From contig NC_013202.1 in assembly GCF_000023965.1 (NCBI RefSeq), positions 2,700,001 through 2,732,000 of the forward strand: a DNA stretch of 32,000 bases, in the 5' to 3' direction. A program made the position numbers and the translations under genes. Below the pieces are notes generated by a model. It saw only the letters and a program-made list of their open reading frames with translations, did no database searches and was not told the DNA's origin. Of this stretch, positions 10,202-27,186 are shown piece by piece. The number at the start of each line of letters is the position of its first letter. The first letter of the stretch is position 1. This stretch comes from Halomicrobium mukohataei DSM 12286 (GTDB taxonomy: Archaea; Halobacteriota; Halobacteria; Halobacteriales; Haloarculaceae).

Positions 10202-11119
10202 ATGGACGTTCTGGAGCGGTACGAACCGCTGATCGATGATTTTTCGGCGTTCCGCGACGCCTGCGCGCGCCCGCTCCCGCCGGTCGTTCGAGTCAACACG
10301 CTCAAGACGACCGTCGACCGGGCCATCCGGGCGCTGCGAGACGAGGGCATCACCGTCGAACGGACCGACTGGCACGAGGGGCTCCTGGAACTGCCCGACG
10401 ATCAGCCGGGGGCGAACTGGCCGTACTTCCACGGCTGGATCTACGGACAGGAAGAAGTCTCGGCCGTGCCCGTCCGCGTCCTCGGTCCAGAGCCCGGCGA
10501 GCGGATCTGGGACGCCTGTGCCGCGCCGGGGAGCAAGACCTCACAGATCGCGGCCCGACAGGGCGACGACGGCGTCGTCGTGGCGACCGACTCCAACCTC
10601 GGCCGCCTCTCGGCGCTGCGGACCAACACCGAACAGCTGGGCATCACCAGCGTCGCCGTCACCCACGAGGACGCCCGCAACCACTCGCTGAAGCCGTTCG
10701 GGGACGACGACAGTGCCGAGTACGACCGCGCGCTCGTGGACGTGCCCTGTTCGTGCGAGGGGACGGTCCGCAAGAACCCGGACACGCTCGACGAGTGGAC
10801 CCTCGAACACGTCGAGGGCATCGCCGGTGTCCAGAAGGGCGTGCTCCGGCGCGCGATCCAGACCACGAAGCCCGGCGGGACGGTCGTCTACTCGACGTGT
10901 ACGTTCGCGCCCGAGGAGAACGAGGCGGTGCTCGACTACGCGCTCGAAACGGAGGCGTGCCGACTCGTCCCCTTCGAGATCCCGCTGGCCTCGACGGGCG
11001 GCGTCACGGAGTGGCAGGGCGAATCCTACGACGACAGCGTCCGGCAGGCCCACCGGATCTACCCCCACCACAACGACACCGGCGGGTTCTTCTGCGCGAA
11101 ACTGGAGGTCACAGCATGA
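10202..11119 (+). CDS. NOL1/NOP2/Sun-family RNA cytosine-C5 methyltransferase (305 aa)
   Basis: The ATG at 10202 gives MDVLERYEPLIDDF. SAM-binding motif DACAAPGSKT, and catalytic motifs DVPCSCEGT and YSTCT. Confidence 0.9.
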   Translation: MDVLERYEPLIDDFSAFRDACARPLPPVVRVNTLKTTVDRAIRALRDEGITVERTDWHEGLLELPDDQPGANWPYFHGWIYGQEEVSAVPVRVLGPEPGERIWDACAAPGSKTSQIAARQGDDGVVVATDSNLGRLSALRTNTEQLGITSVAVTHEDARNHSLKPFGDDDSAEYDRALVDVPCSCEGTVRKNPDTLDEWTLEHVEGIAGVQKGVLRRAIQTTKPGGTVVYSTCTFAPEENEAVLDYALETEACRLVPFEIPLASTGGVTEWQGESYDDSVRQAHRIYPHHNDTGGFFCAKLEVTA

Positions 11120-11616
11120 CCCACGGCGACGTGACCTTCGACCGGGTGCCGGCCGACGACGCGGCCCGCGAGGACCCCGACGCGCCGACGCGCGAGGAGA
11201 TTCTGGACTACTGGCCCGACCGGTTCGCCATTCCCCGCGAGGTGTTCGAACCCTACACCTTCTGGGAGCGTGGCAACGGCAAGATCTGGCTGTTCCGCGG
11301 CGAGGCACCCGACACGGTCCCCATCCAGGGGCTCGGCATGACGTTCCTGCGCACTCGCCAGGAGTTCTGGAAGCCGACGACCGACGCCGTCCAGCGCTTT
11401 GGCGGCCACGCGAGCGAGAACGTCCTCCACCTCGACCGGGACGCCGCCCGCGCCTTCGTCGCGGGCGAGGACCAGGAGATCGAGTGGGACGGCGACTGGG
11501 GCTATCTCATCGTCACCCACGACATCGCCGGGGCGACCGAACCCCTCGGCGTCGGCCTGTACACCTACGGCGAACTCAAGACACAGGTCGCCAAGGGTCG
11601 CCAGCGAGAGCTGTAA
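11116..11616 (+). CDS. small protein translationally coupled to the m5C methyltransferase (166 aa), probably a PUA-like accessory domain protein
   Basis: The ATG at 11116-11118 overlaps the TGA at 11117-11119 (ATGA). Sequence MTHGDVTFDRVPADDAAREDPDAPTREEILDYWPDRF...GLYTYGELKTQVAKG. Function is inferred from the coupling only. Confidence 0.65.
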   Translation: MTHGDVTFDRVPADDAAREDPDAPTREEILDYWPDRFAIPREVFEPYTFWERGNGKIWLFRGEAPDTVPIQGLGMTFLRTRQEFWKPTTDAVQRFGGHASENVLHLDRDAARAFVAGEDQEIEWDGDWGYLIVTHDIAGATEPLGVGLYTYGELKTQVAKGRQREL

Positions 11617-11682
11617 CGGACGGTTTACTGGGGTCGTCGCTCGACTGCTGCACACCACAATCCACCAGATGACCGAGATGGA

Positions 11683-11712
11683 TTCATGTTAGAAGCTGTT
11701 TCGGGCTAGTAT
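11683..11712 (+). promoter_or_regulatory. TTC PAM (11683-11685) plus partial protospacer for the crRNA-like element at 12064-12150; candidate Cascade-binding operator
   Basis: 11686-11706 ATGTTAGAAGCTGTTTCGGGC matches pseudo-spacer positions 1-21 (ATGTTCGAAGCTGTTGCGGGC), with mismatches only at positions 6 and 16. Positions 22-26 do not match. A TATA-like TATTAAGT at 11710-11717 abuts the 3' end. Confidence 0.5.
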
Positions 11713-11754
11713 TAAGTAGGTGGGGCCACATGGTTGAACTGACGCGTCAGCGTC

Positions 11755-11800
11755 CGTAATCAGAGCATCACCCCGTCCAAAGAGAGATGCCCTGATTACG
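11755..11800. repeat. 15-bp inverted repeat (14 bp plus one A.C mismatch) with a 16-nt loop: strong hairpin
   Basis: CGTAATCAGAGCATC (11755-11769) and GATGCCCTGATTACG (11786-11800), read directly from the sequence. Confidence 0.85.
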
Positions 11801-11903
11801 CCGAAAACCGAGCAATGAAACTCACTCGGGCTGCGTTGGCAGCGAGCTAACGTATGTGTCGGTCCGATTTAGGGGTTTGGTTGCTCCAGCGAGAGGCTTC
11901 ACT

Positions 11904-12020
11904 ATGAACCGACCAAGCACACGACCCGACATCCGGCCGACGTTGAACTGGATCGAACGATCACACATCCGTGACGAGAAGGCGGACGTGAAGACAGACG
12001 AAGACAGGCAAAACAACTAA
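11904..12020 (+). CDS. candidate small ORF (38 aa) in the low-GC islet; speculative
   Basis: ATG at 11904, preceded by SD-like GAGAGG (11891-11896) with a 7-nt spacer. Product MNRPSTRPDIRPTLNWIERSHIRDEKADVKTDEDRQNN. It is rich in A-ending codons (CGA, CCA, ACA, TCA, CAA) that are atypical for this genome. It falls below the ORF-track length cutoff. Confidence 0.2.
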   Translation: MNRPSTRPDIRPTLNWIERSHIRDEKADVKTDEDRQNN

Positions 12021-12063
12021 ATCGATTTCTCCTCTCTCCAAACATGCCCGTAGTACAGTCGAA

Positions 12064-12150
12064 TTTTCAGTCGGACGCTGGTGCCGTTGAAGCATGTTCG
12101 AAGCTGTTGCGGGCACTGCTGTTTCAGCTGGACCCTTTTGGGTTCATATT
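12064..12150 (+). ncRNA. crRNA-like mini-array psiR1-psiS-psiR2 (CreA/CreR-type regulatory RNA gene candidate)
   Basis: psiR1 12064-12093 matches the array repeat at 23/30, including GTTGAAGC against the ATTGAAGC 5' handle. psiS 12094-12120 is 27 nt. psiR2 12121-12150 matches at 21/30 (19/22 over the 3'-handle part). The orientation is the same as the cas operon and the array. Confidence 0.6.
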
Positions 12151-12169
12151 CATCATCACCACGATTACA

Positions 12170-12177
12170 TTTATATA
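12170..12177 (+). promoter_or_regulatory. TATA box TTTATATA, probable cas6/cas operon promoter
   Basis: This is the best TATA-like element in the region. It lies 20 nt after psiR2 and about 62 nt upstream of the cas6 ATG. SD-like AGGGAG at 12225-12230 sits 8 nt before the ATG at 12239. Confidence 0.45.
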
Positions 12178-12238
12178 GAATCGTTCGGTTGTGAGTATCA
12201 CAATGACACAAAATGACACGAAGTAGGGAGTACAACGG

Positions 12239-13042
12239 ATGCGAGTGATCGCACATCTGCAAGCACGTGCCGATACGGCGTACGACGCGACGTATCACCA
12301 CAAGCTTCGAGGGCGTCTCTGGGACGCTCTCGACGGGACGGCGTACGAGTCGCTGCACGACGAGAACCGTCCGAAGGGGTTCACGTACTCGAACCCGTTT
12401 CCGCCGGGAAACATGCGCGAGGGCGACGAGAAGACGTTGCTCGTCGCCTCGCCACACGAAGAGTTACTCGCCCACGTCGCGGCCGACCTCAAACTCGACC
12501 GCGAGCTGAACATCGGGGAGATGCCCTTCCACGTCGACGCGGTCAACGGGCTGGCGACCGACGTGGGCGAACCGGGCACGTCGGGGACGATCGAGACCGG
12601 AACGGGGGTCCTGGTCCGGATTCCGCCGTGGCGGTTCGAGGAGTACGGCATCGACACCGACCACGACGAGGCCGAGTTTTGGCGGCCGGAGCACACGATG
12701 GAGCCGTTCCGGAACCAGATCGAGAACAACCTCGACAAGAAACACGGACTGTTCTGTCAGGAGTACCAGCCCGGGCCGTCGGAGACCGACGGCGATCTGT
12801 TCGAGGGCGCGGATCTGATCAAGACGTTCTCGATTCCGGTGACGGTCACGCAGGGCCAGCGCGAGACGTGGGTGTTGAGCAAGTGGCGATTCGACTACAC
12901 CGTCCGCGACGACCACCACCGCCGCCACCTGAATCTGGCGCTGGACACCGGGCTCGGCGAGCGCAACTCGCTGGGCTTCGGATTCGTCAACATCACCGAG
13001 AAGGACGGTCGCCAGCCCGGAACGGAGGACATCGATGCTTGA
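12239..13042 (+). CDS. cas6b: CRISPR endoribonuclease Cas6 (type I-B, 267 aa)
   Basis: First gene of the cas operon. C-terminal glycine-rich loop GLGERNSLGFGFV, typical of Cas6. The stop overlaps the cas8b start. Confidence 0.9.
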   Translation: MRVIAHLQARADTAYDATYHHKLRGRLWDALDGTAYESLHDENRPKGFTYSNPFPPGNMREGDEKTLLVASPHEELLAHVAADLKLDRELNIGEMPFHVDAVNGLATDVGEPGTSGTIETGTGVLVRIPPWRFEEYGIDTDHDEAEFWRPEHTMEPFRNQIENNLDKKHGLFCQEYQPGPSETDGDLFEGADLIKTFSIPVTVTQGQRETWVLSKWRFDYTVRDDHHRRHLNLALDTGLGERNSLGFGFVNITEKDGRQPGTEDIDA

Positions 13043-15140
13043 TCCCGACGAGTTCTACGATGAGTATCCGCCCGAGAAGCTCGAAGACGAGCTCCCCGAG
13101 CGACCGATCTCGTCGCTGCGGGACATCCAGCACCTCTACGGGCGACTCTACACGCTGGCGACGGCCGGCGGCGGCGACTACGCGGCCTATCTGACGCCCG
13201 ATCAGGCCAACGATCTGATCGGGACAGAGGAGAGCCTGATCGCCGTCTGCGTCGATCTGTCCGGAGAGCGGCCGACGCTCGACGCGGAGGAACCCGTCCG
13301 GGTGACCCAGTACACCGACGACCTGGTACAGCGGGTCGCTCACTGCAAGTACAACGCGGCGCGGGGGATCGACCACAGCGTCACGCACCGCTCCGGACGC
13401 AACAGCGATCCCGAGAAACTGGCCCGGTACGCCTGCGAGCGGCTGACGAAGTGGGCGACCGACGACGTGGTCCAGAGCATCGCAGACGATCACCCCGACG
13501 GCGACGTGATCCGCGGACTGGCGACCGTCGGCGAGGACGAGAACGCCCTCGACAGGATTCGAGAGGCCGTCCAGACCGAGCTCGGCGGTTCGACGACAGC
13601 GCTCCTCACCGTGCAGGTGCGCCGGGAGGAGGGCGGCGAGTACGAGTGGCCGGGACAGATTTCCGTGTTCGACGAAGCGATGCGTGCGCGGAAGCTCTCG
13701 AAGCTCGTCTCGAAGGGGCAGGCGACGAACTCTGCCGGCGAGGCGACGGATCTCGTCAGCGGCGAACGGACGCGAACCGTCGGCACCGCCGAGGATCCGC
13801 TCAACTACTTCCTGGGCAAGCAAATGGAGAAGTTCCCGGGGCTGGATCCCGACGAGGCCTGGCGGAGCCACCCCATCTCCGAGGACGGCGCGGTCACGCT
13901 GATGAACGCCGAGGAGTTCGTCGACGCCTGTTCCTACCGGACGTTCAACGCCGACGTGTATTACCTCCCGTACTTCCTCGGACGACCGACGCCCGAAGAG
14001 ACGTACAAGCTGTACGCGGCACTCCACAGAGTCACACGGGACGACGACATGAATCCGGTTCAGGCGCTCTACGACGAGTTCGGCGACCACGAGGCGGCGC
14101 CCGAGGGGCGACTGCGCTTCTACGTCGCGGCGGTGATGAAACACCAGATGTCCCGATTCGACGTGTACGGCGAGACGCTGAACGGCCGGATCCACTACCC
14201 GACCGAGGTCGGGCAGCGACACGAGCAGGTGACCGGCAGCTGGGTCTTCGACGAGGACGACGCCAGGAACGGAGGTCGGACGCCGCCGATGCCCTCCCAC
14301 GAAGAGTGGGCGCTCACTAATTACCAGCGGTTTCGAGAGATGGTCGCGTCGGGTGCCTATCTCTACGGCACCTTCCCGTTCACCGACGAGGACACCGACG
14401 CGACGGTCGACGACGAGCGAATCGACGTTCACGTCTCGATCCTTGCCGGCGATCCCGTCCCGCGGAACCAACTGGTCAGCGCCTACGTCGATCGATTGCT
14501 CGACCGTGACGGTGACGAAGTCCCCGAACTCCTGATCGCCTCCCAGTTCGCACAGCTGTGCGCGCTGGAAAACGCCGGCCTCGTGACGACGGACGCCGGC
14601 GAGACCGAACCGACGCTGATCGACGGCCCCGATTACGACACTATGGAACCAGAACACGCGCGAACCGACGGCGGCACTGCTGCCCTCGATCGCACCGAGA
14701 AACTCGAATCGTTCATCGAACAGACGGACGGACTGGACGACGCCGAACGGAAGGGAGCATTCCTGCTCGGCACGCTCGTCGGCCAGGTCGGCACCTACCA
14801 GCAGGGGTATCACGATCGATCGACGACCGTCATCGACCAGTACCCGATCAAGTCGATGACCAAGACGAAGATCAAGCGCATCACCCAAGAGGTGATCGAC
14901 AAAGACGTAGTCTACTCCCGGGAGATGGCCAAGAAAGGGTCGGAGATCAATTCGACGATGTACAAGGAAGTTACGAACGCCATCGTCGAGACCATGGCCG
15001 AAAGCGATCCGTCGGACTGGGAGATCAGCACCGACGATCTGCGCTTCTACTACGCCCTGGGACTGACCTACGGAATGAACGACCGATCGACTAACGAGAA
15101 CGACGCTGCCGACGACGAAACCTCAGAAACCAATGAGTGA
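13035..15140 (+). CDS. cas8b: Cas8b (Csh1) large subunit of type I-B Cascade (701 aa)
   Basis: Called from position (between cas6 and cas7), size, acidic haloarchaeal composition and coupling by overlaps at both ends. No search was possible. Confidence 0.8.
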   Translation: MLDPDEFYDEYPPEKLEDELPERPISSLRDIQHLYGRLYTLATAGGGDYAAYLTPDQANDLIGTEESLIAVCVDLSGERPTLDAEEPVRVTQYTDDLVQRVAHCKYNAARGIDHSVTHRSGRNSDPEKLARYACERLTKWATDDVVQSIADDHPDGDVIRGLATVGEDENALDRIREAVQTELGGSTTALLTVQVRREEGGEYEWPGQISVFDEAMRARKLSKLVSKGQATNSAGEATDLVSGERTRTVGTAEDPLNYFLGKQMEKFPGLDPDEAWRSHPISEDGAVTLMNAEEFVDACSYRTFNADVYYLPYFLGRPTPEETYKLYAALHRVTRDDDMNPVQALYDEFGDHEAAPEGRLRFYVAAVMKHQMSRFDVYGETLNGRIHYPTEVGQRHEQVTGSWVFDEDDARNGGRTPPMPSHEEWALTNYQRFREMVASGAYLYGTFPFTDEDTDATVDDERIDVHVSILAGDPVPRNQLVSAYVDRLLDRDGDEVPELLIASQFAQLCALENAGLVTTDAGETEPTLIDGPDYDTMEPEHARTDGGTAALDRTEKLESFIEQTDGLDDAERKGAFLLGTLVGQVGTYQQGYHDRSTTVIDQYPIKSMTKTKIKRITQEVIDKDVVYSREMAKKGSEINSTMYKEVTNAIVETMAESDPSDWEISTDDLRFYYALGLTYGMNDRSTNENDAADDETSETNE

Positions 15141-16188
15141 ACACTATCCCACCGTTTCGAACAGGTCCGAAATCGTCTTCGCGTACGACGCGGTCGACGC
15201 GAACCCCAACGGCAATCCGCTGAGCGGCGCGAACCGACCGCGTATCGACCCCCACACCGATCAGGCGATCGTCACCGACGTTCGCCTCAAGCGCTACCTC
15301 CGCGATCAGCTACAGGACGACGGTCACGGCGTCTACATTCGCAACGTCAAGGAAGACGACGGCGATCAGGCGACCCGCGAGGACCTCCTCGAAGACCGTC
15401 TCAAGGACATCGACCTCGACGACGTGGACGAAGCCGACATCGAAAACGCCGTCTTCGGTCAGTTCCTCGAAAACAGCGCCGACGTTCGCTACTTCGGCGC
15501 GACGATGAGCATCGATATGGACGATGAGAAGGTCGACCACCTCCCGGATCACTTCACCGGTCCCGTCCAGTTCTCGCCGGGCAAGTCGCTCCACCGAGTC
15601 ATGGAAAACGAGGAGTACAACAGCCTCACAAGCGTCATCGCGACCGGCGACGACAAGGCACAGGGCGGGTTCGATCTCGACGACCACCGGATCCAGTACG
15701 CGTTCATCGGGTTCCACGGACTCGTCGACGAGCACGGGGCCGAAGGCACGCTCCTGACGGATGGGGACGTGCGGCGACTGGACACGCTGTGCTGGCGCGC
15801 GCTGAAGAACCAGACGATCAGCCGGAGCAAGGTCGGACAGGAGCCCCGGCTCTACCTCAGAGTCGAGTACGCCGACGAGAGCTTCCATCTCGGCGGGCTC
15901 GATCAGGACATCGATCTCGACAGTTCGGAATCCGCTCCCGTCGAGGAAATTCGCAACGTCCGAGACATCTGTGTCGACGTGTCGGCGCTGCTCGAACGGC
16001 TCGACGCGGCGTCCGACCGGATCGACACCGTCCACGTCGTCGCCAGCGACGTTCTCGAACTCTCCGTCGACGGTGAGACGGGCGGTCCGGAGTTCCTCTA
16101 CGACGCCCTCGAATCGAGGGTCGGTAGCGAATCCGTCCGCGAGATCGACGTGTACGAGGACGCGAAGGCGACGATGCCGGAGGAGTGA
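15133..16188 (+). CDS. cas7: Cas7 (Csh2) backbone subunit, type I-B (351 aa)
   Basis: N-terminal SEIVFAYDAVDANPNGNPL motif (DevR/Csh2-type Cas7). The ATG at 15133 overlaps the cas8b stop. Confidence 0.9.
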   Translation: MSEHYPTVSNRSEIVFAYDAVDANPNGNPLSGANRPRIDPHTDQAIVTDVRLKRYLRDQLQDDGHGVYIRNVKEDDGDQATREDLLEDRLKDIDLDDVDEADIENAVFGQFLENSADVRYFGATMSIDMDDEKVDHLPDHFTGPVQFSPGKSLHRVMENEEYNSLTSVIATGDDKAQGGFDLDDHRIQYAFIGFHGLVDEHGAEGTLLTDGDVRRLDTLCWRALKNQTISRSKVGQEPRLYLRVEYADESFHLGGLDQDIDLDSSESAPVEEIRNVRDICVDVSALLERLDAASDRIDTVHVVASDVLELSVDGETGGPEFLYDALESRVGSESVREIDVYEDAKATMPEE

Positions 16189-16191
16189 TCC

Positions 16192-16980
16192 GTGTCCGAG
16201 CACGCACCGACTGCGTCGGGGCTTCCCGACGGCGCTGAGACGTGCCTGTCGTTTACCGTTAGCGGCCCCTGGGGGCACTTCCGGCGCATCGAGGGTAACA
16301 TCGTGAAACAGACCTATCGGGTCATTCCCCGGACCACCGTCGCCGGCCTGATCGCCGCGATGCTGGGGATCGAACGCGACGGCTACTACGACCTGTTCGC
16401 GCCGGGCGAGTCGCTCGTCGCCATCGAACCGACGAGCGAACTGCGGACGATGAAGCTCCCGATGAACACGCTCTCGACGGCCGACGAGCATATGGCGTCG
16501 CTGAACCCGCGCGGGAAGCTCTCGATCAAGCTTCCAGATCCGTCCAAGCCCCGCCAGCAGCACAACTACGAGGTCCTGGTGGAGCCGGCCTATCGAATCG
16601 ACGTGTGGCTCGCCGACGACGAGCGGTACGACCGGCTCCGCTCGCTACTCGAATCGGGAGAGTCGTACTACGTCCCGAGTCTCGGTCTCTCGGAGCACCT
16701 CGCGACGATCGACTACCACGGCGAGTTTCCGGTCGAGCACGGACCGGACGGTGAGACGGTCGCGATCGACTCGACCGTCCCCGAGGCGGTCGACTCGATC
16801 GTCCCCGATCCGGAGACGCGGTACCAGATCGAGCAGACACCGGCGTTCATGGAACGTGACGACGGCGGGCGCACGACCAGTGCGTTCGTCTCCTACGCCT
16901 ACAATCCGGATGGTGGCTCGCTGAGAGTCGCTGACGTGTCGACGTACTCGGTCGACGACCGAGCCGTGGTGTTCACCTGA
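16192..16980 (+). CDS. cas5: Cas5 (Cas5h), type I-B (262 aa)
   Basis: GTG start at 16192. Sequence LSFTVSGPWGHFRRIEGNIVKQTYRVIPRTTVAGLIAAMLGI is the typical Cas5 N-terminal motif. Confidence 0.85.
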   Translation: MSEHAPTASGLPDGAETCLSFTVSGPWGHFRRIEGNIVKQTYRVIPRTTVAGLIAAMLGIERDGYYDLFAPGESLVAIEPTSELRTMKLPMNTLSTADEHMASLNPRGKLSIKLPDPSKPRQQHNYEVLVEPAYRIDVWLADDERYDRLRSLLESGESYYVPSLGLSEHLATIDYHGEFPVEHGPDGETVAIDSTVPEAVDSIVPDPETRYQIEQTPAFMERDDGGRTTSAFVSYAYNPDGGSLRVADVSTYSVDDRAVVFT

Positions 16981-19550
16981 TGGGGACCGAGCCGATCTCT
17001 CATCCGGCCACAGACGGCGACGAGGCGACGCGACTCCTCGACCACCTCGACGACGTGGCCGGACGGGCCGAATCTGTCGTCTCGGCGGACGCAACGACGA
17101 TCGGCGGTGATCCCCTCCCCGAGATGACGGCAGTCGTCGCACGGTGTCACGACTTCGGGAAGGCGACGACGTGGTTCCAGGCGTACGTGGTCGGCGAGCG
17201 CGACGCCAGTGACCGGACGAACCACTCCCTGCTGGGTGCCTATCTCGGGTACTACGTCCTCGACCGGCTGGGATACGACAGCGAGGACTGTCTCGCGGCC
17301 CTCGTCGCCCTCGCGAAACACCACGGCCAGCTCCCCGATGTCGAGGAGTACGTCGACGGCGTTTCGCGTTTCGAGAACACGAGCGAGGCGAGCAACGAGC
17401 GCCAACGGATACTGATCGAACAGGTCGGGAACGTCGACGACCACCGCCGGCAGTTCGCGCAGTCGTTCGTCGCGGACGCGACCGACGGTAACGGGTCGTG
17501 GGAGGAGTTCGCACAGAGCATCGAGGACGAGTCCCTGTTCGACACCGTCCACGAACACGTCTCTCTGTTCGGCTTCGGCAGCGACCGCTCGGCACCGTCC
17601 GAGGAGTTCTACGGGTTGCTCCTCCAGCTCTGGAGTGGACTGGTGTTTGCCGATAAAACGGTGGCTGCCGGTATCGAGAACGGCGATCTCGACGGCTCCG
17701 AACCGGATGCCCGTCTCCTCTCGGAGTACATCGCCGACCTGGGCGGTGACACAGACGAAGACGGTCAGGCCGCCGCGCTCGATACGCTCCGTGGCGAGGC
17801 GAGAGACGACGTACTCGGCGGTGTCGAACGGTTCCGCGACTCGGAGGTATCTATAGCTACGCTGACACTACCGACCGGCATGGGGAAGACGCTGACCGGC
17901 CTCAGTGCCGCTCTGGCGCTCCGCGACGAGGGCGAACGCGTCGTCTACGCACTGCCCTTTACCTCCGTCATCGACCAGGTGGCCGACGAGCTCGCGGACG
18001 TGTTCGACACCGACGCTCGCGACGACCTGTTGACGATCCACCACCACCTGGCAGAGACGGTGACGAAGCTCGGTGATCCGGACGAGGACCCCGACGAGTA
18101 CGCCCGGCTCGCGGAGATGGTCGCCGAGAGCTGGCGCTCCGGGATGACGCTCACGACGTTCGTCCAGCTCTTCGAGAGCCTCGTCGGCCCGAGCAACACC
18201 CAGTCGATGAAACTACCCGCGCTGTACGATTCCGTGATCGTGCTGGACGAACCCCAAGCACTGCCGATGCAGTGGTGGAAGCTGGTCCGGCGGATCGCGA
18301 CGATCCTCACCGAGGAGTACGACGCGACGATCGTCGCCATGACGGCGACCCAGCCGAGAGCGACCGACGAGGAGACGGCGTCGCAAGCCCTGTTCGACGA
18401 TGCGTTCGAACTGGTCGACGACGTCGATCGATACTTCGGCCACTTCGAACGGGTCGAGTACGACGTTCACGACTCCGTGCTCGCGTTCGACGACACCGAC
18501 GCGATCGTGGACTACGAGACCGCTGGCCGGACGATCCTCGACGAGACCGGCAGATCCGAGTCGACACTCGCGATCTGTAACACCATCGACAGTGCCACTG
18601 CGCTCACGGACGCGATCGAGGAACGCGAAGCGGTCGTCGACGTTGGCCGATGTCTCGAACTGGAGCTCGACGACGGGGCTGACGTGGACGCTCTCGTCGA
18701 ACGAGTCGAGTCGACCCTCAGTTCGAACGAACGGGCGCTCGTCCACCTCTCGACTCGCCTGCGCCCGCGCGATCGACTCGCGCTCGTCGAGGCGACAAAG
18801 CGCCTCACCGAGCGCGACGTTCCGGTCCTGGCGGTGTCGACACAGCTCATCGAGGCCGGCGTCGACATCAGCTTCGATCGGGTGTACCGCGATATCGCAC
18901 CGATCGACAGCGTCGTCCAGGCGGCGGGTCGGTGTAATCGGTCCTTCGAGAGCGACCTCGGAACGGTGACTGTCTGGTGGCTCGCACCACCGGCGGGCAC
19001 GACAACGACACCGGCACAGGCAGTCTACGACTCCGAGGGCGTCAGTACGATCTCACTGACCGCCAGGACGCTCGACGCGATCGGTGCGGACGACGGAACC
19101 GTCGCCGAACAAACGATGACTCGCGATGCCGTCGAGCACTACTACGGGCTCGTCGCCGACCGTAACCCCGGTGACCCCGAGTACGTCAAGTGGGTCGACG
19201 AGGCCAACGCCGACGCGCTCGGGGGCCTCTCGCTGATCGGCCAGCGCGAGAGCGTGGACGTGGTCGTCTGCCGAACCGATGGCGATCGAGAACTGGCCGA
19301 TGCAATGGTGGCGGCTCTCGACGAATTTGACTACGACGCGTTCGGCGACTACCGCGAAGCGGCCAAAGATATCACCGTCTCGCTCCCGATCTACAGTCGA
19401 GACTCGACCGAGGCCGAAACAGTTCGAAATCTCGAACCGCTCGGCGATGCCGATCTCCGTGTGCTCAGGCGAGCGCGAGGCACTTCCTACTTCGACGAGA
19501 CGAAGGGCCTCGCCGTGGACGAACCCTGCGTCGACGATCGGTTCCTATGA
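16980..19550 (+). CDS. cas3: Cas3 HD-nuclease/helicase fusion (856 aa)
   Basis: N-terminal HD domain (LDHLDDV, CHDFGKAT, HSLLGAY, AKHHG). SF2 helicase motifs PTGMGKT and VLDEPQ, with later motifs STQLIEAGVDISF and QAAGRCNR. Confidence 0.95.
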   Translation: MGTEPISHPATDGDEATRLLDHLDDVAGRAESVVSADATTIGGDPLPEMTAVVARCHDFGKATTWFQAYVVGERDASDRTNHSLLGAYLGYYVLDRLGYDSEDCLAALVALAKHHGQLPDVEEYVDGVSRFENTSEASNERQRILIEQVGNVDDHRRQFAQSFVADATDGNGSWEEFAQSIEDESLFDTVHEHVSLFGFGSDRSAPSEEFYGLLLQLWSGLVFADKTVAAGIENGDLDGSEPDARLLSEYIADLGGDTDEDGQAAALDTLRGEARDDVLGGVERFRDSEVSIATLTLPTGMGKTLTGLSAALALRDEGERVVYALPFTSVIDQVADELADVFDTDARDDLLTIHHHLAETVTKLGDPDEDPDEYARLAEMVAESWRSGMTLTTFVQLFESLVGPSNTQSMKLPALYDSVIVLDEPQALPMQWWKLVRRIATILTEEYDATIVAMTATQPRATDEETASQALFDDAFELVDDVDRYFGHFERVEYDVHDSVLAFDDTDAIVDYETAGRTILDETGRSESTLAICNTIDSATALTDAIEEREAVVDVGRCLELELDDGADVDALVERVESTLSSNERALVHLSTRLRPRDRLALVEATKRLTERDVPVLAVSTQLIEAGVDISFDRVYRDIAPIDSVVQAAGRCNRSFESDLGTVTVWWLAPPAGTTTTPAQAVYDSEGVSTISLTARTLDAIGADDGTVAEQTMTRDAVEHYYGLVADRNPGDPEYVKWVDEANADALGGLSLIGQRESVDVVVCRTDGDRELADAMVAALDEFDYDAFGDYREAAKDITVSLPIYSRDSTEAETVRNLEPLGDADLRVLRRARGTSYFDETKGLAVDEPCVDDRFL

Positions 19551-20107
19551 CGGACTCCTCTGGCGACCCCGTCGACCGGTTTCTCGCCGCCGCCAGAGAC
19601 GAGAGCGCAGAACTTCCCTTTCGGCTCACGGGCGTCATGTTCCAGTACTACGTCGTCTGTGAGCGCGAGCTATGGTTTCTCAGCCGCGACGTGGAGATCG
19701 ATCGCGACACACCGGCGATCGTCCGCGGGAGCGACGTGGACGACTCGGCGTACGCCGACAAGCGCCGCGACGTTCGCGTCGACGGCATCATCGCAATCGA
19801 CGTGCTCGACAGCGGCGAGATTCTGGAGGTCAAACCCTCCTCGTCGATGACCGAACCGGCCCGGCTGCAGCTGTTGTTTTACCTCTGGTACCTCGATCGG
19901 GTCACCGGCGTCGAAAAGACCGGCGTGCTCGCACACCCCGCGGAAAAGCGCCGCGAGACCGTCGAGTTGACGCCGGAGACGAGCGCCGAAGTCGAATCTG
20001 CGATCGAGGGGATTCGCGCGGTCGTCACTGCCGAATCGCCGCCGCCGGCAGAGGAGAAGCCGGTCTGTGACTCGTGTGCCTATCACGACTTCTGCTGGAG
20101 CTGTTGA
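19547..20107 (+). CDS. cas4: Cas4 RecB-like exonuclease (186 aa)
   Basis: N-terminal Cys (YYVVCEREL), RecB-like D/E-x-K core (DGIIAIDVL...ILEVKPS), and a C-terminal CDSCAYHDFC cysteine cluster. ATGA overlap with cas3. Confidence 0.9.
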   Translation: MTDSSGDPVDRFLAAARDESAELPFRLTGVMFQYYVVCERELWFLSRDVEIDRDTPAIVRGSDVDDSAYADKRRDVRVDGIIAIDVLDSGEILEVKPSSSMTEPARLQLLFYLWYLDRVTGVEKTGVLAHPAEKRRETVELTPETSAEVESAIEGIRAVVTAESPPPAEEKPVCDSCAYHDFCWSC

Positions 20108-20109
20108 TC

Positions 20110-21102
20110 ATGAACGACAACTACCACGTCTTTTCCGACGGACGCATCGAACGCCACGACGACACGGTACGGGTCATCACCGACGACGGCGAGAAAAAAT
20201 ACCTCCCGGTCGAGAACGCCGAGGCGATCTTCCTCCACGGTCAGATCGAGTACAACACCCGCTTCGTCTCCTTTCTCAATCAGGAAGGCGTCGCCGTACA
20301 CGTCTTCGGCTGGCACGATCACTACGCCGGGTCGATCATGCCCAAGCGGGGCCAAACGTCCGGACAGACACTCGTCGACCAGGTCCGGGCCTACGACGAT
20401 CCGGCCCACCGGCTCGAACTGGCTCAGGCGTTCGTCGACGGCAGCATCCACAACATGCGTGCGAACGTCACGTACTACGACGGCCGAGGACACGACTTCG
20501 AGGACGTGCTGGCAGAGCTGACCGAAGCCCGGTCGTCACTCGACAGGATGGAGACGATCGACGAGACGATGGGCGTCGAAGCACGCGCCCGAAAGGCGTA
20601 CTACTCGACCTTCGACGAGATCCTGCCCGACGAGTTCGTCTTCGGCGGCCGCCAGTACGATCCGCCGAACAACGAAGTCAACAGCCTCATCTCTTTCGGC
20701 AATTCGCTCGTCTACGCCAACGTCGTCTCGGCCATCCGAGCGACGGCACTCGATCCCACGGTCAGCTTCCTCCACGAGCCCGGCGAGCGTCGGTACTCGC
20801 TGGCCCTGGACATCGCCGACCTGTTCAAACCGTTGCTCGCGGATCGAGTCATCTTCAGACTCGTCAACCGCGGCCAGCTGACCAGCGACGATTTCGAGGC
20901 CGAGATGAACGCCTGCCTGCTGAACGAGCACGGCCGGAAGACCTACTCGAAGGCCTACGAAGAGACGCTCGACGAGACGATCGAGCACCCGGATCTGGGA
21001 AAGAAGGTGAGCTATCAGTATCTCCTCCGAGTCGAGGTGTACAAGCTCAAAAAACATCTCCTGACCGGCGAGGAGTACGTCCCGTTCCAACGGTGGTGGT
21101 GA
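20110..21102 (+). CDS. cas1: Cas1 integrase (330 aa)
   Basis: The ATG at 20110, 2 nt after the cas4 stop, gives MNDNYHVFSDGRIERHDDTVRV. Typical Cas1 length and position. The track start at 20074 lies inside cas4. Confidence 0.95.
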   Translation: MNDNYHVFSDGRIERHDDTVRVITDDGEKKYLPVENAEAIFLHGQIEYNTRFVSFLNQEGVAVHVFGWHDHYAGSIMPKRGQTSGQTLVDQVRAYDDPAHRLELAQAFVDGSIHNMRANVTYYDGRGHDFEDVLAELTEARSSLDRMETIDETMGVEARARKAYYSTFDEILPDEFVFGGRQYDPPNNEVNSLISFGNSLVYANVVSAIRATALDPTVSFLHEPGERRYSLALDIADLFKPLLADRVIFRLVNRGQLTSDDFEAEMNACLLNEHGRKTYSKAYEETLDETIEHPDLGKKVSYQYLLRVEVYKLKKHLLTGEEYVPFQRWW

Positions 21103-21105
21103 CGC

Positions 21106-21369
21106 GTGGTCTACGTGGTCGTCGTCTACGACATGGAAGCCGACCGGACACACAAGATGCTGAAGTTCCTCCGCCGGTATCTCACCCACGTCCAGAACTC
21201 CGTCCTCGAAGGAGACGTGACCGAGGGCGATCTCGAAAAGATCCGCTCCGGCGTCGACGACCTGCTCAAACCCGGAGAGTCGACGATCATCTACCAGATC
21301 TCCTCGGAGAAGCTGGTCGACCGAAGCGTGTTCGGTGACGATCCCGCCGCAGACGACCAGTTCCTGTGA
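21106..21369 (+). CDS. cas2: Cas2 (87 aa)
   Basis: GTG start at 21106 gives (M)VYVVVVYDMEADRTHKMLKFLRRYL, the canonical Cas2 beta1-alpha1 start. It lies immediately after cas1. Confidence 0.9.
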   Translation: MVYVVVVYDMEADRTHKMLKFLRRYLTHVQNSVLEGDVTEGDLEKIRSGVDDLLKPGESTIIYQISSEKLVDRSVFGDDPAADDQFL

Positions 21370-23381: not shown

Positions 23382-25579
23382 GTTTCAGACGGACCCTTGT
23401 GGGATTGAAGCTGCGTCGTCCGGTGGCCGTCAATAAATGTCGCAAGGGGTTTCAGACGGACCCTTGTGGGATTGAAGCTCCTACGACCTCGTCGGCGTCA
23501 ACGGCTGGCCCGAGTTTCAGACGGACCCTTGTGGGATTGAAGCCACCCTACAACAGGTGAAATCTACCAGACAAAAGAGTTTCAGACGGACCCTTGTGGG
23601 ATTGAAGCTCACCCAAGCGCAAGCAACAGCTGATCGAGGACCTGGTTTCAGACGGACCCTTGTGGGATTGAAGCGCGACGGCGGCCAGTTCCGCGAGGGC
23701 GGGAAGGTCCGTTTCAGACGGACCCTTGTGGGATTGAAGCTGCGAGTGTTGCGGGGAACCGACTCGGGTAGGCCAGGTTTCAGACGGACCCTTGTGGGAT
23801 TGAAGCACGGTTTCGCTACCACCATCGCCACCAGCAACTGCCGGTTTCAGACGGACCCTTGTGGGATTGAAGCGACGAGTATGCCAACCGGCTCGTGAGC
23901 GGGCGCGTTTCAGACGGACCCTTGTGGGATTGAAGCTGGTAGGCGTCGTAGGTGTTCGTGGCGAGCGTGTCGTTTCAGACGGACCCTTGTGGGATTGAAG
24001 CACTCACTGGATTATGACCCCTACAACGAGGGCGTCAGTTTCAGACGGACCCTTGTGGGATTGAAGCGGATCTCGATCGTTGTAGTATCCATAGCTGCTA
24101 TACCGTTTCAGACGGACCCTTGTGGGATTGAAGCGAAGTAACGCAACTCCAGTGAGCGCTACTGAGAGCCCGTTTCAGACGGACCCTTGTGGGATTGAAG
24201 CCCGATCACGCCCTGCCGATACTGGTAGTTCGCGATAGTTTCAGACGGACCCTTGTGGGATTGAAGCTCGTCGGCCGGCTCGTCGGCCGACGTGGACTTG
24301 CGTTTCAGACGGACCCTTGTGGGATTGAAGCAGTAGGTCTAATGTCTCTCTGTCGTCTATCAGCCCCGGTTTCAGACGGACCCTTGTGGGATTGAAGCGC
24401 TCTCCGGTGTCACAGGTCAGGTCACGGTCTCCGCGTTTCAGACGGACCCTTGTGGGATTGAAGCACGGACAAGTCATCCACCCGCCAGTATCTCCCGGTG
24501 TTTCAGACGGACCCTTGTGGGATTGAAGCAAATACGATCCTGCGGTGACGCTACGTCCGGGGCAGCGTTTCAGACGGACCCTTGTGGGATTGAAGCCAGA
24601 TGTGGGGTCTGTGGCCACAGTCTAACATCTCTGTTTCAGACGGACCCTTGTGGGATTGAAGCCCTGATAACGGACTCTTGTAGGTCCGTTAGGTCGTGTT
24701 TCAGACGGACCCTTGTGGGATTGAAGCAAAAATGAGTGACGTAGACATTCGGCAAAATGCCGGGTTTCAGACGGACCCTTGTGGGATTGAAGCCAGCAGC
24801 GAAACGAGCCGTCCGTCCTTTTGAGACAGTTTCAGACGGACCCTTGTGGGATTGAAGCGTCTAGCCCAGTCTGGTCGGGGTGGTCGGCAGGATCGGGTTT
24901 CAGACGGACCCTTGTGGGATTGAAGCCACTCCTCATATGTCTGTTCGAGCAGCGGGACGTGGTTTCAGACGGACCCTTGTGGGATTGAAGCACCGTTGCC
25001 GCCGATCGGCAGCGAGCCGGTGATGTGTGTTTCAGACGGACCCTTGTGGGATTGAAGCTCAAAGCGAGCCTCGAACGCGACGACGAAGATATGGTTTCAG
25101 ACGGACCCTTGTGGGATTGAAGCTCCTCCTTGTACCCACGGTCTTGCCGATCCATCCCGGTTTCAGATGGACCCTTGTGGGATTGAAGCGACTGGCGTGT
25201 TGCCGTTCAGGCCGGCGTTGATCCCGGTTTCAGACGGACCCTTGTGGGATTGAAGCCTCAGCAGCAGTCAACGGCATTTTATACACCTTGTGTTTCAGAC
25301 GGACCCTTGTGGGATTGAAGCCACCCCTTCCGGGGAGACGAGGAAACCCCGGACGAGTTTCAGACGGACCCTTGTGGGATTGAAGCGTCACGCTGTCTGA
25401 CGATATGGCTGACCAGGTGCGTTTCAGACGGACCCTTGTGGGATTGAAGCCACTCCTGGGCGGCCTCATCGGCGGCCATCGTCGTTTCAGACGGACTCTT
25501 GTGGGATTGAAGCGTTGTGTGAGGTATGCGATGGACACCACCGATCACGGTTTCAGACGGACCCTTGTGGGACCCGGCA
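23382..25579 (+). CRISPR. CRISPR array: 34 repeats of 30 nt (GTTTCAGACGGACCCTTGTGGGATTGAAGC), 33 spacers of 33-38 nt
   Basis: Repeat starts are 23382, 23449, 23514, 23579, 23645, 23711, 23777, 23844, 23907, 23972, 24038, 24105, 24172, 24238, 24302, 24369, 24435, 24500, 24567, 24633, 24698, 24764, 24829, 24897, 24962, 25029, 25094, 25160, 25227, 25292, 25357, 25421, 25484 and 25550. Variants are repeat 28 (C9T), repeat 33 (C14T) and repeat 34, which matches only over its first 23 nt (25550-25572). The repeat differs by 1 nt from the remembered Haloferax volcanii I-B repeat. Confidence 0.98.
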
Positions 25580-27145: not shown

Positions 27146-27186
27146 GGCAGACTATCGGATACCGATCGGCAAAAGCCCGGCGTCGC

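What the first reader, a model, noticed from the sequence alone, without database searches (positions are those of the whole stretch)
11683..12150. crRNA-like mini-array upstream of cas6 whose pseudo-spacer partially matches a TTC-flanked site 0.4 kb upstream (CreA/CreR-type Cascade-guided regulator)
Seen in the sequence: 12064-12093 (TTTTCAGTCGGACGCTGGTGCCGTTGAAGC) matches the array repeat GTTTCAGACGGACCCTTGTGGGATTGAAGC at 23/30. This includes 7/8 of the terminal ATTGAAGC that forms the 8-nt 5' handle of haloarchaeal I-B crRNAs. 12121-12150 (GTTTCAGCTGGACCCTTTTGGGTTCATATT) matches at 21/30, with 19/22 over the part that becomes the 3' handle and a decayed last 8 nt. So exactly the two handle-forming parts are preserved. 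Both copies are oriented like the cas operon and the array. Between them lie 27 nt, ATGTTCGAAGCTGTTGCGGGCACTGCT, which is shorter than any real spacer here (33-38 nt). At 11686-11706 the sequence ATGTTAGAAGCTGTTTCGGGC equals pseudo-spacer positions 1-21 except at positions 6 and 16. Positions 22-26 all mismatch. The 3 nt immediately 5' are TTC (11683-11685), a functional PAM of haloarchaeal type I-B systems. Established knowledge: in type I interference every 6th position is flipped out, so the seed (1-5, 7-11) is intact, while a truncated match supports Cascade binding without Cas3 cleavage. This is the design of the CreA antitoxin RNA of CreTA modules (Haloarcula hispanica I-B; Li et al., Science 2021) and of the later-described Cas-regulating CreR RNAs. 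Inference: Cas6 processes this element into a crRNA-like RNA. That RNA then parks Cascade on 11686-11706, next to a TATA-like TATTAAGT (11710-11717), and represses whatever is transcribed from there. Alternative: both 21-mers are debris of a duplicated, decayed second array. The bases before the upstream copy (GGATTcatgttaGAAGC) can themselves be read as a broken repeat end.
Basis: partly seen in the sequence, partly recalled or inferred. Interest (0 to 1): 0.9.

Follow-up and report, generated by a model that had tools for sequence, protein, structure and literature searches.

The report
Published CRISPR-guarding toxin-antitoxin (CreTA) module
The mini-array in front of cas6 is the already published CreTA addiction module of Halomicrobium mukohataei, in which a crRNA-like RNA (CreA) guides Cascade to silence a neighbouring toxin gene; the one possibly new point is that this toxin gene appears to encode a conserved 38-residue protein.

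Summary
psiR1 (12064-12093) matches the array repeat at 23/30 and psiR2 (12121-12150) at 21/30. They flank a 27-nt pseudo-spacer. A TTC-flanked site at 11686-11706 matches pseudo-spacer positions 1-21 except 6 and 16.

The primers that Cheng et al. (NAR 2022, PMC9458426) list for "H. mukohataei creTA amplification" match the window exactly at 11617-11634 and 12221-12238. Cheng et al. report Cas6-type handles on CreA by sRNA-seq in 2021. In 2022 they report that this creT is toxic in Haloarcula hispanica.

- Homologous modules in Haloplanus, Natrinema and metagenomes keep the TTC PAM. Four positions (1, 8, 10, 14) have changed on both the psiS and the target side.
- Halomicrobium katesii (Cas6 99% identical) lacks the module.
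- psiR2 sits where relatives have the degenerate terminal repeat of an upstream array.
- creT holds a 38-aa ORF (11904-12020) under purifying selection (pN/pS 0.31, core 0.14) behind a structured leader. This suggests a small-protein toxin, which I did not find described for this family.

Verdict: already known, with low to moderate interest.

The parts
11683..11685 (+). PAM 5'-TTC-3' of the CreA target
   Evidence: Read directly from the sequence. TTC is kept immediately 5' of the target in all five homologous loci, while the bases further upstream vary. TTC is the type I-B PAM according to PMC8501985.
11686..11712 (+). Protospacer of CreA in the creT promoter. Positions 1-21 (11686-11706) match psiS except at 6 and 16, and the remaining 6 nt run into the TATA-like box.
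   Evidence: The seed (1-5, 7-11) matches 10/10 with the cognate psiS but only 7/10 with the psiS of the other lineage. Positions 1, 8, 10 and 14 have changed on both sides.
11710..11717 (+). TATA-like box TATTAAGT of the predicted creT promoter (PcreT)
   Evidence: An A/T-rich octamer stands at the same alignment position in all 5 homologs (TATTAAGT, AATTATAT, GGTTATGT, TTTTATAC, AACTATGT). Its function as a promoter is inferred; no TSS data were available here.
11738..11903 (+). Structured 5' leader of creT. It has a hairpin (11759-11769 pairing with 11786-11796) and a long stem (11810-11823 pairing with 11872-11886). The start coordinate is predicted from the TATA position.
   Evidence: MFE -66 kcal/mol, z = -3.95 against shuffles. 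The same helices appear in the consensus fold of 4 homologs, but only 2 pairs show compensatory changes. The stretch includes a nearly invariant 40-nt block.
11904..12020 (+). Conserved 38-codon ORF inside creT (MNRPSTRPDIRPTLNWIERSHIRDEKADVKTDEDRQNN), a candidate small-protein toxin
   Evidence: ATG and TAA are kept in 5/5 full-length homologs, and the 12-nt deletion in L008 is in frame. pN/pS is 0.31 overall and 0.14 in the core, against 1.0 or more in the other two frames. The identical 38-aa protein P0001 and an 86% relative P0002 are the only hits among 5.8 billion proteins.
12064..12093 (+). psiR1 of creA, which supplies the 8-nt 5' handle
   Evidence: 23/30 to the repeat, with 7/8 in the last 8 nt. 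Rfam CRISPR-DR24 gives 28.1 bits. The sequence is identical to the psiR1 in the published primers Hmuk-psiR-V10-F and -R.
12094..12120 (+). psiS, the 27-nt pseudo-spacer of creA
   Evidence: The boundaries agree with the published primers Hmuk-psiR1-F and Hmuk-psiR2-R.
12121..12150 (+). psiR2 of creA, which supplies the 22-nt 3' handle
   Evidence: 21/30 to the repeat, with 19/22 in the first 22 nt. It is the reverse complement of the sequence in published primer Hmuk-psiR-V10-R1. It stands at the same distance from cas6 (88 nt) as the degenerate terminal repeat of the upstream array in L021 (90 nt).
12170..12177 (+). TATA box (TTTATATA) of the cas6 operon's own predicted promoter
   Evidence: It is conserved in H. 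katesii, which lacks creTA. Identity between the two genomes resumes at about 12161. It is also conserved in L007, L008, L039 and L021.
12239..21369 (+). Type I-B cas operon (cas6, cas8b, cas7, cas5, cas3, cas4, cas1, cas2). It supplies Cas6 and Cascade, which CreA needs.
   Evidence: NCBIfam hits are above the curated cut-offs for all eight genes.
23382..25579 (+). CRISPR array with 33 full repeats plus a degenerate terminal repeat at 25550-25579. It is the reference for the repeat consensus.

Best explanation
Window 11617-12238 is the CreTA (CRISPR-regulated toxin-antitoxin) module of the Halomicrobium mukohataei type I-B system.

Proposed mechanism:
1. creA is a degenerate one-spacer mini-CRISPR (psiR1-psiS-psiR2, 12064-12150). 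It is transcribed and cut by Cas6 in both pseudo-repeats. The product is a crRNA-like RNA with an 8-nt 5' handle, the 27-nt psiS and a 22-nt 3' handle (published sRNA-seq).
2. Loaded into Cascade, CreA recognises TTC at 11683-11685 and pairs with 11686-11706 (seed intact, 19 of 21 matched).
3. The guide is short and positions 22-26 do not pair. The R-loop is therefore incomplete and Cas3 is not licensed (inferred from type I biology).
4. Bound Cascade covers the BRE/TATA region (11703-11717) and shuts off the creT promoter (inferred here; shown experimentally for the H. hispanica and H. hubeiense modules).
5. creT (about 11738-12063) is toxic when expressed (published for this element in a heterologous host). 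Loss of any Cascade gene or of cas6 should therefore de-repress the toxin and arrest the cell, making the host addicted to its CRISPR effector. This step is shown for the H. hispanica and H. hubeiense modules and inferred here.

My addition, which is inference from comparative data: the toxic principle of this creT family is most likely a translated 34-38-residue protein (ORF 11904-12020) expressed from a structured leader. It does not look like the rare-codon tRNA-sequestering mini-ORF of the two characterised haloarchaeal CreT RNAs.
For: Identity with the published module:
- The amplification primers match exactly at both ends.
- The published psiR1, psiS and psiR2 sequences are the same as the window's.
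- Published experiments are summarised.

Anatomy.

Selection on the guide-target pair:
- Homologs L007, L039 and the window each have a 10/10 cognate seed match.
- The window seed (ATGTT.GAAGC) and the L007/L039 seed (TTGTT.GGACC) differ at positions 1, 8 and 10. These positions, and position 14, have changed in both psiS and target.
- Position 17 likewise differs on both sides in L008.
- Position 6 is a C/A mismatch in all four psiS-target pairs, as expected for a flipped-out base.
- The TTC PAM is kept in 5/5 loci.

Toxin gene:
- Conserved ORF with pN/pS 0.31 (core 0.14) in frame, against 1.0-4.3 out of frame.
- Conserved start and stop codons, and an in-frame indel.
- Structured leader, z = -3.95.
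- No pair of consecutive rare codons near the start. This agrees with the authors' remark that no such ORF was found in the other four haloarchaeal creT genes.
Against: - Those rest on the literature, and the toxicity and rescue tests were done in H. hispanica, not in H. mukohataei.
- In that host the wild-type Hmuk creA did not repress creT. Only repeat-replaced versions did, and only in wild-type cells.
- The Natrinema gari homolog (L008) has two seed mismatches (positions 8 and 9) at the TTC site. Perfect seed pairing is therefore not universal, or that copy is decaying.
- H. katesii, with a 99% identical Cas6, carries no module at this place. The module is dispensable.
- For the small-protein claim: the peptide is hydrophilic, has no recognisable family, and gives a low-confidence model (pLDDT 64.5). 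One partial homolog (L043) has a frameshifted C-terminus. The leader RNA is at least as conserved as the ORF and could itself be the toxin.
Confidence: 0.92

Rival explanations
1. It is a CreR-type regulator. The crRNA-like RNA guides Cascade to autorepress cas expression, there is no toxin, and its role is dosage control rather than addiction.
For: The mini-array lies directly upstream of the cas6 promoter and is co-oriented with the operon. If transcription from the 11.7-kb promoter reads through creA into cas6, repressing it would also lower cas expression. CreA of H. hispanica is known to repress both creT and Pcas8 (bioRxiv 10.1101/2023.03.10.532045).
Against: - The target lies 0.55 kb upstream of the cas6 start. 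It is separated from the operon's own TATA box (12170) by a conserved gene and by creA.
- That TATA box and the 5' UTR persist in H. katesii without the module.
- The sequence between target and creA is a conserved ORF plus leader.
- The cloned region is toxic.
- By definition CreR does not co-occur with a toxin gene.
Confidence: 0.04
2. It is inert debris. The two pseudo-repeats and the 21-nt duplicate are remnants of a decayed second CRISPR array upstream of cas6 and have no present function.
For: - Relatives carry an ordinary array at exactly this position (L019, L021, L023, L031, L033).
- The degenerate terminal repeat of the L021 array lies 90 nt before cas6, with a tail like that of psiR2. 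Halorhabdus salina (L017) keeps only a solitary relic of this kind, 91 nt before cas6.
- The window's own array also ends in a repeat with a decayed 3' end. A conserved first 22 nt with a decayed last 8 nt is therefore what terminal repeats look like anyway.
- H. katesii has lost the element.
Against: - The psiS seed and its target changed together at four positions (three of them in the seed) between lineages, and TTC is kept in 5/5 loci.
- The 5' handle part of psiR1 is kept at 6-7/8 in all homologs, although the rest of psiR1 has fallen to 13-16/22.
- In the homologs the bases upstream of the target show no repeat-end remnant. The reading of GGATTcatgttaGAAGC as a broken repeat is therefore not supported.
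- Published data show a mature CreA RNA and a toxic creT.
Confidence: 0.03
3. It is a CreTA module as described, but the toxin is the creT RNA itself. The RNA would act through its structured leader, or by sequestering a tRNA or another essential RNA, and the 38-codon ORF would be incidental or only a ribosome-loading device.
For: - Four characterised CreT toxins are described as RNAs: H. hispanica (AGA-AGA), H. hubeiense (AUA-AUA), Acinetobacter I-F and P. aeruginosa.
- The leader is strongly structured and has a nearly invariant 40-nt block.
- A rare AGR arginine codon is kept at codon 35.
- The C-terminus of the ORF is frameshifted in L043.
Against: - Substitutions in the ORF core are 9 synonymous to 1 non-synonymous, and core pN/pS is 0.14. 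That pattern means the amino-acid sequence is selected, not the codons.
- Codon identity at the arginine positions varies (CGA, CGC, CGG).
- There are no consecutive rare codons after the start codon.
- A protein toxin under CreA control (CreP) has a precedent in Acinetobacter.
Confidence: 0.4

Closest known systems
CreTA of Halomicrobium mukohataei DSM 12286 (predicted by Li et al., Science 2021, cited from memory and from the two NAR papers; CreA sRNA-seq in Cheng et al., NAR 2021, PMC8501985; creT toxicity and repeat-swap tests in Cheng et al., NAR 2022, PMC9458426)
   Same: It is the same element. Both published amplification primers and the psiR1, psiS and psiR2 sequences match the window exactly.
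   Different: Nothing differs in the element. The papers read here give no toxicity mechanism for this creT. They also do not mention the 38-aa ORF, the 21-nt extent of the match, the homologs used here, or the absence of the module from H. katesii.
CreTA of Natrinema sp. J7-2 (same papers)
   Same: It is a true homolog. The published Natrinema primers map to L008 (N. gari) at 2267-2284 and 2937-2956. L008 aligns with the window from the creT leader to cas6 at about 76% identity. It has the same architecture and the same ORF.
   Different: Its psiS is of the other seed type (TTGTT.GGACC). In L008 the TTC-flanked target has mismatches at seed positions 8 and 9, and a second target-like copy with a GTC flank lies 37 nt upstream. 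The ORF is 34 aa because of an in-frame 12-nt deletion.
CreTA of Halobacterium hubeiense (Cheng et al. 2021)
   Same: [quoted passage not shown] The target has a TTC PAM, overlaps BRE/TATA and has seed pairing at 1-5 and 7-11. creT carries a stem-loop.
   Different: There is no sequence similarity. The Hhub CreT is a 6-codon mini-ORF with two AUA codons that sequesters tRNA-Ile(CAU). Here the ORF is 38 codons, its amino-acid sequence is conserved, and it has no tandem rare codons. Pairing here extends to position 21 rather than 11. The target is on the psiS-identical strand upstream of TATA.
CrePA of Acinetobacter baylyi ADP1, type I-F (Shu et al., bioRxiv 10.1101/2024.01.05.574328)
   Same: A CreA RNA directs the effector to repress a protein-coding toxin gene. 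This is the precedent for a protein toxin under CRISPR repression.
   Different: CreP is a 103-aa phage-derived KilAC-domain protein in a bacterial I-F locus. The ORF here is 34-38 aa, archaeal, has no detectable family, and its translation and toxicity are untested.
CreR RNAs (Liu et al., bioRxiv 10.1101/2023.03.10.532045)
   Same: A degenerate mini-CRISPR in a cas locus that guides the effector to a promoter through partial complementarity.
   Different: CreR targets the cas promoter and has no toxin partner. Here the target drives a separate conserved gene that is reported to be toxic.

Membership tests
CreTA (CRISPR-regulated toxin-antitoxin, type VIII TA) | creA is a degenerate mini-CRISPR (psiR1-psiS-psiR2, or psiR-psiS) inside or next to a cas operon, with no leader. 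The 5'-handle part of psiR1 and the 3'-handle part of psiR2 are preferentially kept. | tested here: met
   psiR1 matches at 16/22 and 7/8; psiR2 matches at 19/22 and 2/8. The spacer is 27 nt, the unit ends 88 nt upstream of cas6, and the orientation is the same as the operon. The same pattern holds in L007, L008 and L039.
CreTA (CRISPR-regulated toxin-antitoxin, type VIII TA) | psiS has only partial complementarity (seed 1-5, 7-11) to a nearby site flanked by a functional PAM. | tested here: met
   TTC PAM, seed 10/10, 19/21 matched overall, and positions 22-26 unmatched. The site is unique in the window. Co-variation and PAM conservation hold across homologs.
CreTA (CRISPR-regulated toxin-antitoxin, type VIII TA) | The target overlaps the promoter of the toxin gene. 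| tested here: inconclusive
   A conserved TATA-like octamer starts 4 nt after the paired stretch, and the conserved creT sequence follows.
CreTA (CRISPR-regulated toxin-antitoxin, type VIII TA) | CreA is matured by Cas6 into a crRNA-like RNA. | not testable with these tools
   Published: sRNA-seq of H. mukohataei DSM 12286 shows an 8-nt 5' handle and a 22-nt 3' handle (PMC8501985, Fig. 3).
CreTA (CRISPR-regulated toxin-antitoxin, type VIII TA) | creT is toxic when not repressed, and repression needs Cascade and CreA. | not testable with these tools
   Published: H. mukohataei creT lowers H. hispanica transformation about 10^4-fold. Tolerance returns in wild-type cells when psiR1 is replaced by the host repeat (PMC9458426). 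Dependence on Cascade in the native host has not been reported in the papers read.
tRNA-sequestering CreT RNAs (H. hispanica / H. hubeiense type) | A mini-ORF with a strong start signal, followed at once by two consecutive rare codons (AGA-AGA or AUA-AUA), plus a downstream stem-loop. | tested here: not met
   The conserved ORF has 38 codons and no tandem rare codons near its start. Its amino-acid sequence, not its codon identity, is conserved. The stem-loops lie upstream of the ORF. The non-conserved mini-ORF at 11731 (MVELTRQRP) has no counterpart in the homologs. The authors likewise report finding no such ORF.
CreR (Cas-regulating RNA) | The target lies within or next to the cas promoter, and there is no associated toxin gene. 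| tested here: not met
   The target is about 485 nt upstream of the cas6 TATA box (12170). A conserved creT gene lies in between.
CrePA (CRISPR-repressed protein toxin) | The repressed gene encodes a protein that is itself the toxin (a KilAC-domain protein in the founding member). | tested here: inconclusive
   There is a purifying-selection signal on a 34-38-aa ORF. No similarity to any family or longer protein was found. Translation and toxicity of the peptide are untested.

The most novel reading that the evidence does not exclude
The creT shared by Halomicrobium mukohataei, Natrinema, Haloplanus sp. C73 and three uncultured relatives acts through a translated, family-less protein of 34-38 residues with the conserved core TRPDIRPTLNWIERSH, made from a structured leader. 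That would make it the first archaeal small-protein toxin held in check by a CRISPR effector. It would be mechanistically distinct from both the tRNA-sequestering CreT RNAs and the KilAC-type CreP.
Probability: 0.45. Interest if true: 0.55.

Novelty: already known. Interest (0 to 1): 0.3.

Why it matters
CreTA modules explain how costly multi-subunit CRISPR effectors avoid being lost: the cell dies or stops growing if Cascade fails. They also act as sensors for anti-CRISPRs. This particular module is already in the literature, so the finding adds no new kind of system.

It does show that the first-stage reader can recover such a module from raw sequence with exact boundaries.
- guide-target co-variation across lineages;
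- natural presence or absence between near-identical cas operons;
- psiR2 standing where relatives have an array's terminal repeat;
- a protein-coding signal in a creT whose mechanism the authors left open.

Tried and rejected
- A PLSDB plasmid search with 11000-13100 matched only cas6 and nothing in the creTA part, so the source record is not in that collection.
- Rfam has no family for the creT region. Only sub-threshold CRISPR-DR24 hits on the two pseudo-repeats were found.
- The 9-codon mini-ORF at 11731 (MVELTRQRP*), which I first took for a CreT-like mini-ORF, has no counterpart in the homologs. I dropped it.
- The longer GTG-started 54-aa version of the ORF (11856-12020) was rejected. 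The GTG is GCG in L008, and the upstream part shows no coding-type variation.
- The metagenome scan with the peptide gave one false hit, L041, which is low-complexity seawater DNA.
- AlphaFold2 on the peptide gave pLDDT 64.5 and pTM 0.15. That is too poor for a fold search, so none was run.
- The exhaustive HMMER search of 1.84 billion representatives found no longer protein containing the peptide.
None of the homologs shows anything repeat-like upstream of the TTC.
- The 19/30 repeat-like 30-mer at 4488-4517 is isolated, lies in a region full of ORFs, and is treated as chance.
- Consensus folding of the leader found too few compensatory changes (2 of 68 pairs) to claim a proven RNA structure.
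Full report
**1. The observation**

The region was read directly and the counts were recomputed.
- The CRISPR array at 23382-25579 has 33 repeats of GTTTCAGACGGACCCTTGTGGGATTGAAGC, two of them with one substitution, plus a degenerate terminal copy.
- 12064-12093 matches the repeat at 23/30, split as 16/22 and 7/8. 12121-12150 matches at 21/30, split as 19/22 and 2/8.
- The 27 nt between them, ATGTTCGAAGCTGTTGCGGGCACTGCT, are shorter than the 33-38-nt spacers implied by the repeat coordinates.
- 11686-11706 equals positions 1-21 of this pseudo-spacer except at 6 and 16. TTC lies at 11683-11685 and positions 22-26 mismatch.
- The gene starting at 12239 is cas6. It is followed by cas8b, cas7, cas5, cas3, cas4, cas1 and cas2, all above NCBIfam cut-offs.

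Chance is excluded on three counts.
- Outside the array, the two pseudo-repeats are the best two 30-mer matches on either strand, and they are adjacent and co-oriented.
- Rfam's CRISPR-DR24 model picks both up below threshold (28.1 and 16.6 bits).
- PAM plus seed occurs once in the window, against 0.01 expected with one mismatch allowed.

**2. What it is**

A Cas6-based scan of one genome per species returned Halomicrobium katesii DSM 19301 as the nearest relative, with 99% Cas6 identity. This pointed to Halomicrobium.

H. mukohataei DSM 12286 is one of six haloarchaea for which Ming Li's group published CreTA modules. Table S2 of Cheng et al. 2022 (PMC9458426) settles the identity.
- The primers "for H. 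mukohataei creTA amplification" have genome-specific parts CGGACGGTTTACTGGGGT and CCGTTGTACTCCCTACTT. These match the window once each, without mismatch, at 11617-11634 (+) and 12221-12238 (-).
- Their repeat-swap and mini-CRISPR primers spell out psiR1 as TTTTCAGTCGGACGCTGGTGCCGTTGAAGC and psiR2 as GTTTCAGCTGGACCCTTTTGGGTTCATATT. They place psiS between ...GAAGC|ATGTTC... and ...GCACTGCT|GTTTCAG.

The finding is therefore a rediscovery of the published H. mukohataei CreTA module.

**3. What the literature has shown for this element**

- Cheng et al. 2021 (PMC8501985) sequenced small RNA from H. mukohataei. They report that its two psiR sequences give an 8-nt 5' handle and a 22-nt 3' handle, so the mature CreA has crRNA architecture.
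- Cheng et al. 2022 report that the H. mukohataei creT lowers H. hispanica transformation about 10^4-fold.
- The native creA cannot use the heterologous Cas6.
- Replacing psiR1 by the host repeat restores high transformation efficiency in wild-type cells.
- For the related H. hubeiense module, which also lies upstream of the cas operon, single-base and compensatory mutations proved two things. Seed positions 1-5 and 7-11 and the TTC PAM are what matter, and repression needs every Cascade gene but not cas1-4.
- The authors state that they found no rare-codon ORF in the other four haloarchaeal creT genes, "suggesting distinct toxicity mechanisms".
- I found no later paper in the held library that describes the Halomicrobium or Natrinema toxin.

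BLAST of the 622-nt module against 37 Cas6-related loci found homologs upstream of cas6 in Haloplanus sp. C73 (L007) and Natrinema gari (L008). The published Natrinema sp. J7-2 creTA primers map onto L008, so two of the six published modules are homologs of each other. A peptide-based metagenome scan and protein searches added three more:
- L039, which is identical to L040;
- L042, where the contig ends after creT;
- L043, where the contig starts inside creT.

*(a) Guide and target co-vary.*

| Locus | psiS seed | Target seed |
|---|---|---|
| Window | ATGTTCGAAGC | ATGTTAGAAGC |
| L007 and L039 | TTGTTCGGACC | TTGTTAGGACC |

- Positions 1, 8 and 10 in the seed, and position 14 beyond it, differ between the lineages on both sides. 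Cognate seeds match 10/10 and non-cognate seeds 7/10.
- L008 carries a T instead of C at position 17 in both psiS and target.
- Position 6 is a C/A mismatch in all four psiS-target pairs, as expected for the flipped-out base.
- The TTC is kept in all five loci that include the target, while the bases upstream of it vary.
- Pairing extends to about position 18-21 in every homolog. That is longer than the 11-nt seed match described for H. hispanica and H. hubeiense.

*(b) The module is dispensable and mobile on an evolutionary scale.* In H. katesii the flanks are near-identical: the upstream gene's 3' end on one side, and the cas6 TATA box, 5' UTR and cas6 on the other. Window 11624-12160 (537 nt) is replaced there by about 90 unrelated nucleotides.

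*(c) Origin.* Five relatives have an ordinary array upstream of cas6 that reads toward it.
- In Haloarcula mannanilytica (L021) the degenerate terminal repeat, ATTTCAGACGGACCCCTGTGGTGTCACTAC, ends 90 nt before cas6. It is followed by a CTTTCAC motif and the cas6 TATA box.
- psiR2 of the window ends 88 nt before cas6. In L007, L008 and L039 it ends 85-90 nt before cas6.
- Halorhabdus salina (L017) keeps only a solitary relic there.
- psiR2 is therefore best read as the former terminal repeat of an ancestral upstream array.
- One caution follows. The pattern of a preserved first 22 nt and a decayed last 8 nt is what terminal repeats show in any case; the window's own array does so at 25550.

**5. 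The toxin gene**

- Downstream of the TATA-like box (11710-11717, conserved in position) lies a leader. It folds at -66 kcal/mol, z = -3.95.
- The leader has a hairpin (11759-11769 pairing with 11786-11796) and a 14-bp long-range stem (11810-11823 pairing with 11872-11886). Both recur in the consensus fold, but the sequences are too similar for real covariation: 2 of 68 pairs.
- Then comes an ORF, 11904-12020, of 38 codons. ATG and TAA are kept in five of five full-length homologs, and the only indel among them (12 nt, in L008) is in frame.
- In the core TRPDIRPTLNWIERSH the substitutions are nine synonymous to one non-synonymous.
- Summed over sequence pairs, pN/pS is 0.31 (core 0.14) in this frame, against 2.6 and 1.0 (core 2.7 and 4.3) in the other two frames.
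- With about 25% synonymous sites, nine of ten synonymous has a binomial probability of about 3e-5 (my calculation).
- Codon identity at the arginine positions drifts (CGA, CGC, CGG), and there are no tandem rare codons near the start. The design of the characterised tRNA-sequestering CreT RNAs is therefore absent.
- The peptide is hydrophilic and has no family. Among 5.8 billion proteins only the identical P0001 and one 86% relative were found. An exhaustive profile search of 1.84 billion representatives added only the fragment P0003. The AlphaFold2 model is not usable.
- In L043 a deletion shifts the frame after about codon 32. If the peptide is functional, its N-terminal two thirds carry the function.

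I conclude that the ORF is translated and that its product is selected. That it is the toxin is an inference. The precedent is the protein toxin CreP under CreA control in Acinetobacter. The rival view, an RNA toxin residing in the leader, remains open.

**6. Mechanism, with the status of each step**

1. creA is transcribed and cut by Cas6 in psiR1 and psiR2: published for this organism.
2. CreA loads into Cascade and binds TTC plus 11686-11706: inferred from the sequence and the co-variation, and demonstrated for sister modules.
3. Binding does not trigger Cas3, because the guide is 27 nt and the PAM-distal end is unpaired: inferred from general type I knowledge.
4. Cascade occludes BRE/TATA and silences creT: inferred here.
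5. creT product arrests growth when Cascade or Cas6 fails: toxicity is published in a heterologous host, while addiction in the native host is untested.
6. The toxic product is a 38-aa protein: new inference, about even odds.

**7. Comparison and novelty**

- Membership in CreTA is met for every feature that sequence can test. The remaining features are covered by published experiments on this very element.
- CreR membership fails, because the target is not at the cas promoter and a toxin gene is present.
- The tRNA-sequestering CreT subtype fails.
- CrePA-like function is possible but unproven.

The finding as given is already known. Interest is scored low to moderate. The residual value lies in the comparative results and in the small-protein signal.

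Noticed in passing
window 11904-12020 (+): A 38-codon ORF inside the published creT shows a clear protein-coding substitution pattern across five homologs (pN/pS 0.31, core 0.14). It has no detectable relatives outside these creTA loci. The papers read here do not mention it.
   Followed up: yes
L002 2829-3000 (Halomicrobium katesii DSM 19301) versus window 11624-12160: The closest genome (Cas6 99% identical) has near-identical flanks but lacks the whole creTA cassette. About 90 unrelated nucleotides stand in its place. This is a natural presence/absence polymorphism of the addiction module.
   Followed up: partly
L008 2427-2450 and 2464-2490 (Natrinema gari JCM 14663): The Natrinema homolog has two target-like copies 37 nt apart. 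The TTC-flanked copy has seed mismatches at positions 8 and 9. An upstream GTC-flanked copy has the seed intact except at positions 6 and 11. L042 also has a second target-like copy (2768 and 2799). It is unclear which copy Cascade uses.
   Followed up: partly
L021 2881-2910, L017 2880-2909; window 12121-12150: The degenerate terminal repeat of a real 21-unit array (L021) and a solitary relic (L017) both lie 90-91 nt before cas6. They occupy the position of psiR2 and have a similar tail. This suggests that creA descends from the last unit of an upstream array.
   Followed up: partly
window 21381-22622 (-): A 413-aa TnpB-family RNA-guided endonuclease gene (NF040570, 305.6 bits) sits between cas2 and the CRISPR array. 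It is on the opposite strand and separates the adaptation genes from the array's leader region. No tnpA or omega-RNA was looked for.
   Followed up: no
window 25550-25579, 25160-25189, 25484-25513: The array ends in a repeat whose last 7 nt have decayed (GTTTCAGACGGACCCTTGTGGGACCCGGCA). Two internal repeats near the distal end carry single C-to-T changes.
   Followed up: no
window 25601-27145 (-): A DUF790 protein (PF05626, 403.6 bits) is encoded directly downstream of the array on the opposite strand. It is followed by a 481-aa ORF (27152-28597, -) with no Pfam hit.
   Followed up: no
window 11856-11895 (+): A block of about 40 nt (GTCGGTCCGATTTAGGGGTTTGGTTGCTCC...) just upstream of the ORF is nearly invariant across five homologs, more conserved than the ORF itself. 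It forms the 3' half of the long leader stem and ends at a GAGAG motif that may serve as a ribosome-binding site.
   Followed up: partly
L043 1-130: This partial metagenomic homolog has a frameshifting deletion near the 3' end of the creT ORF, so the reading frame runs into psiR1. Either the C-terminus is dispensable or that copy is a pseudogene.
   Followed up: no
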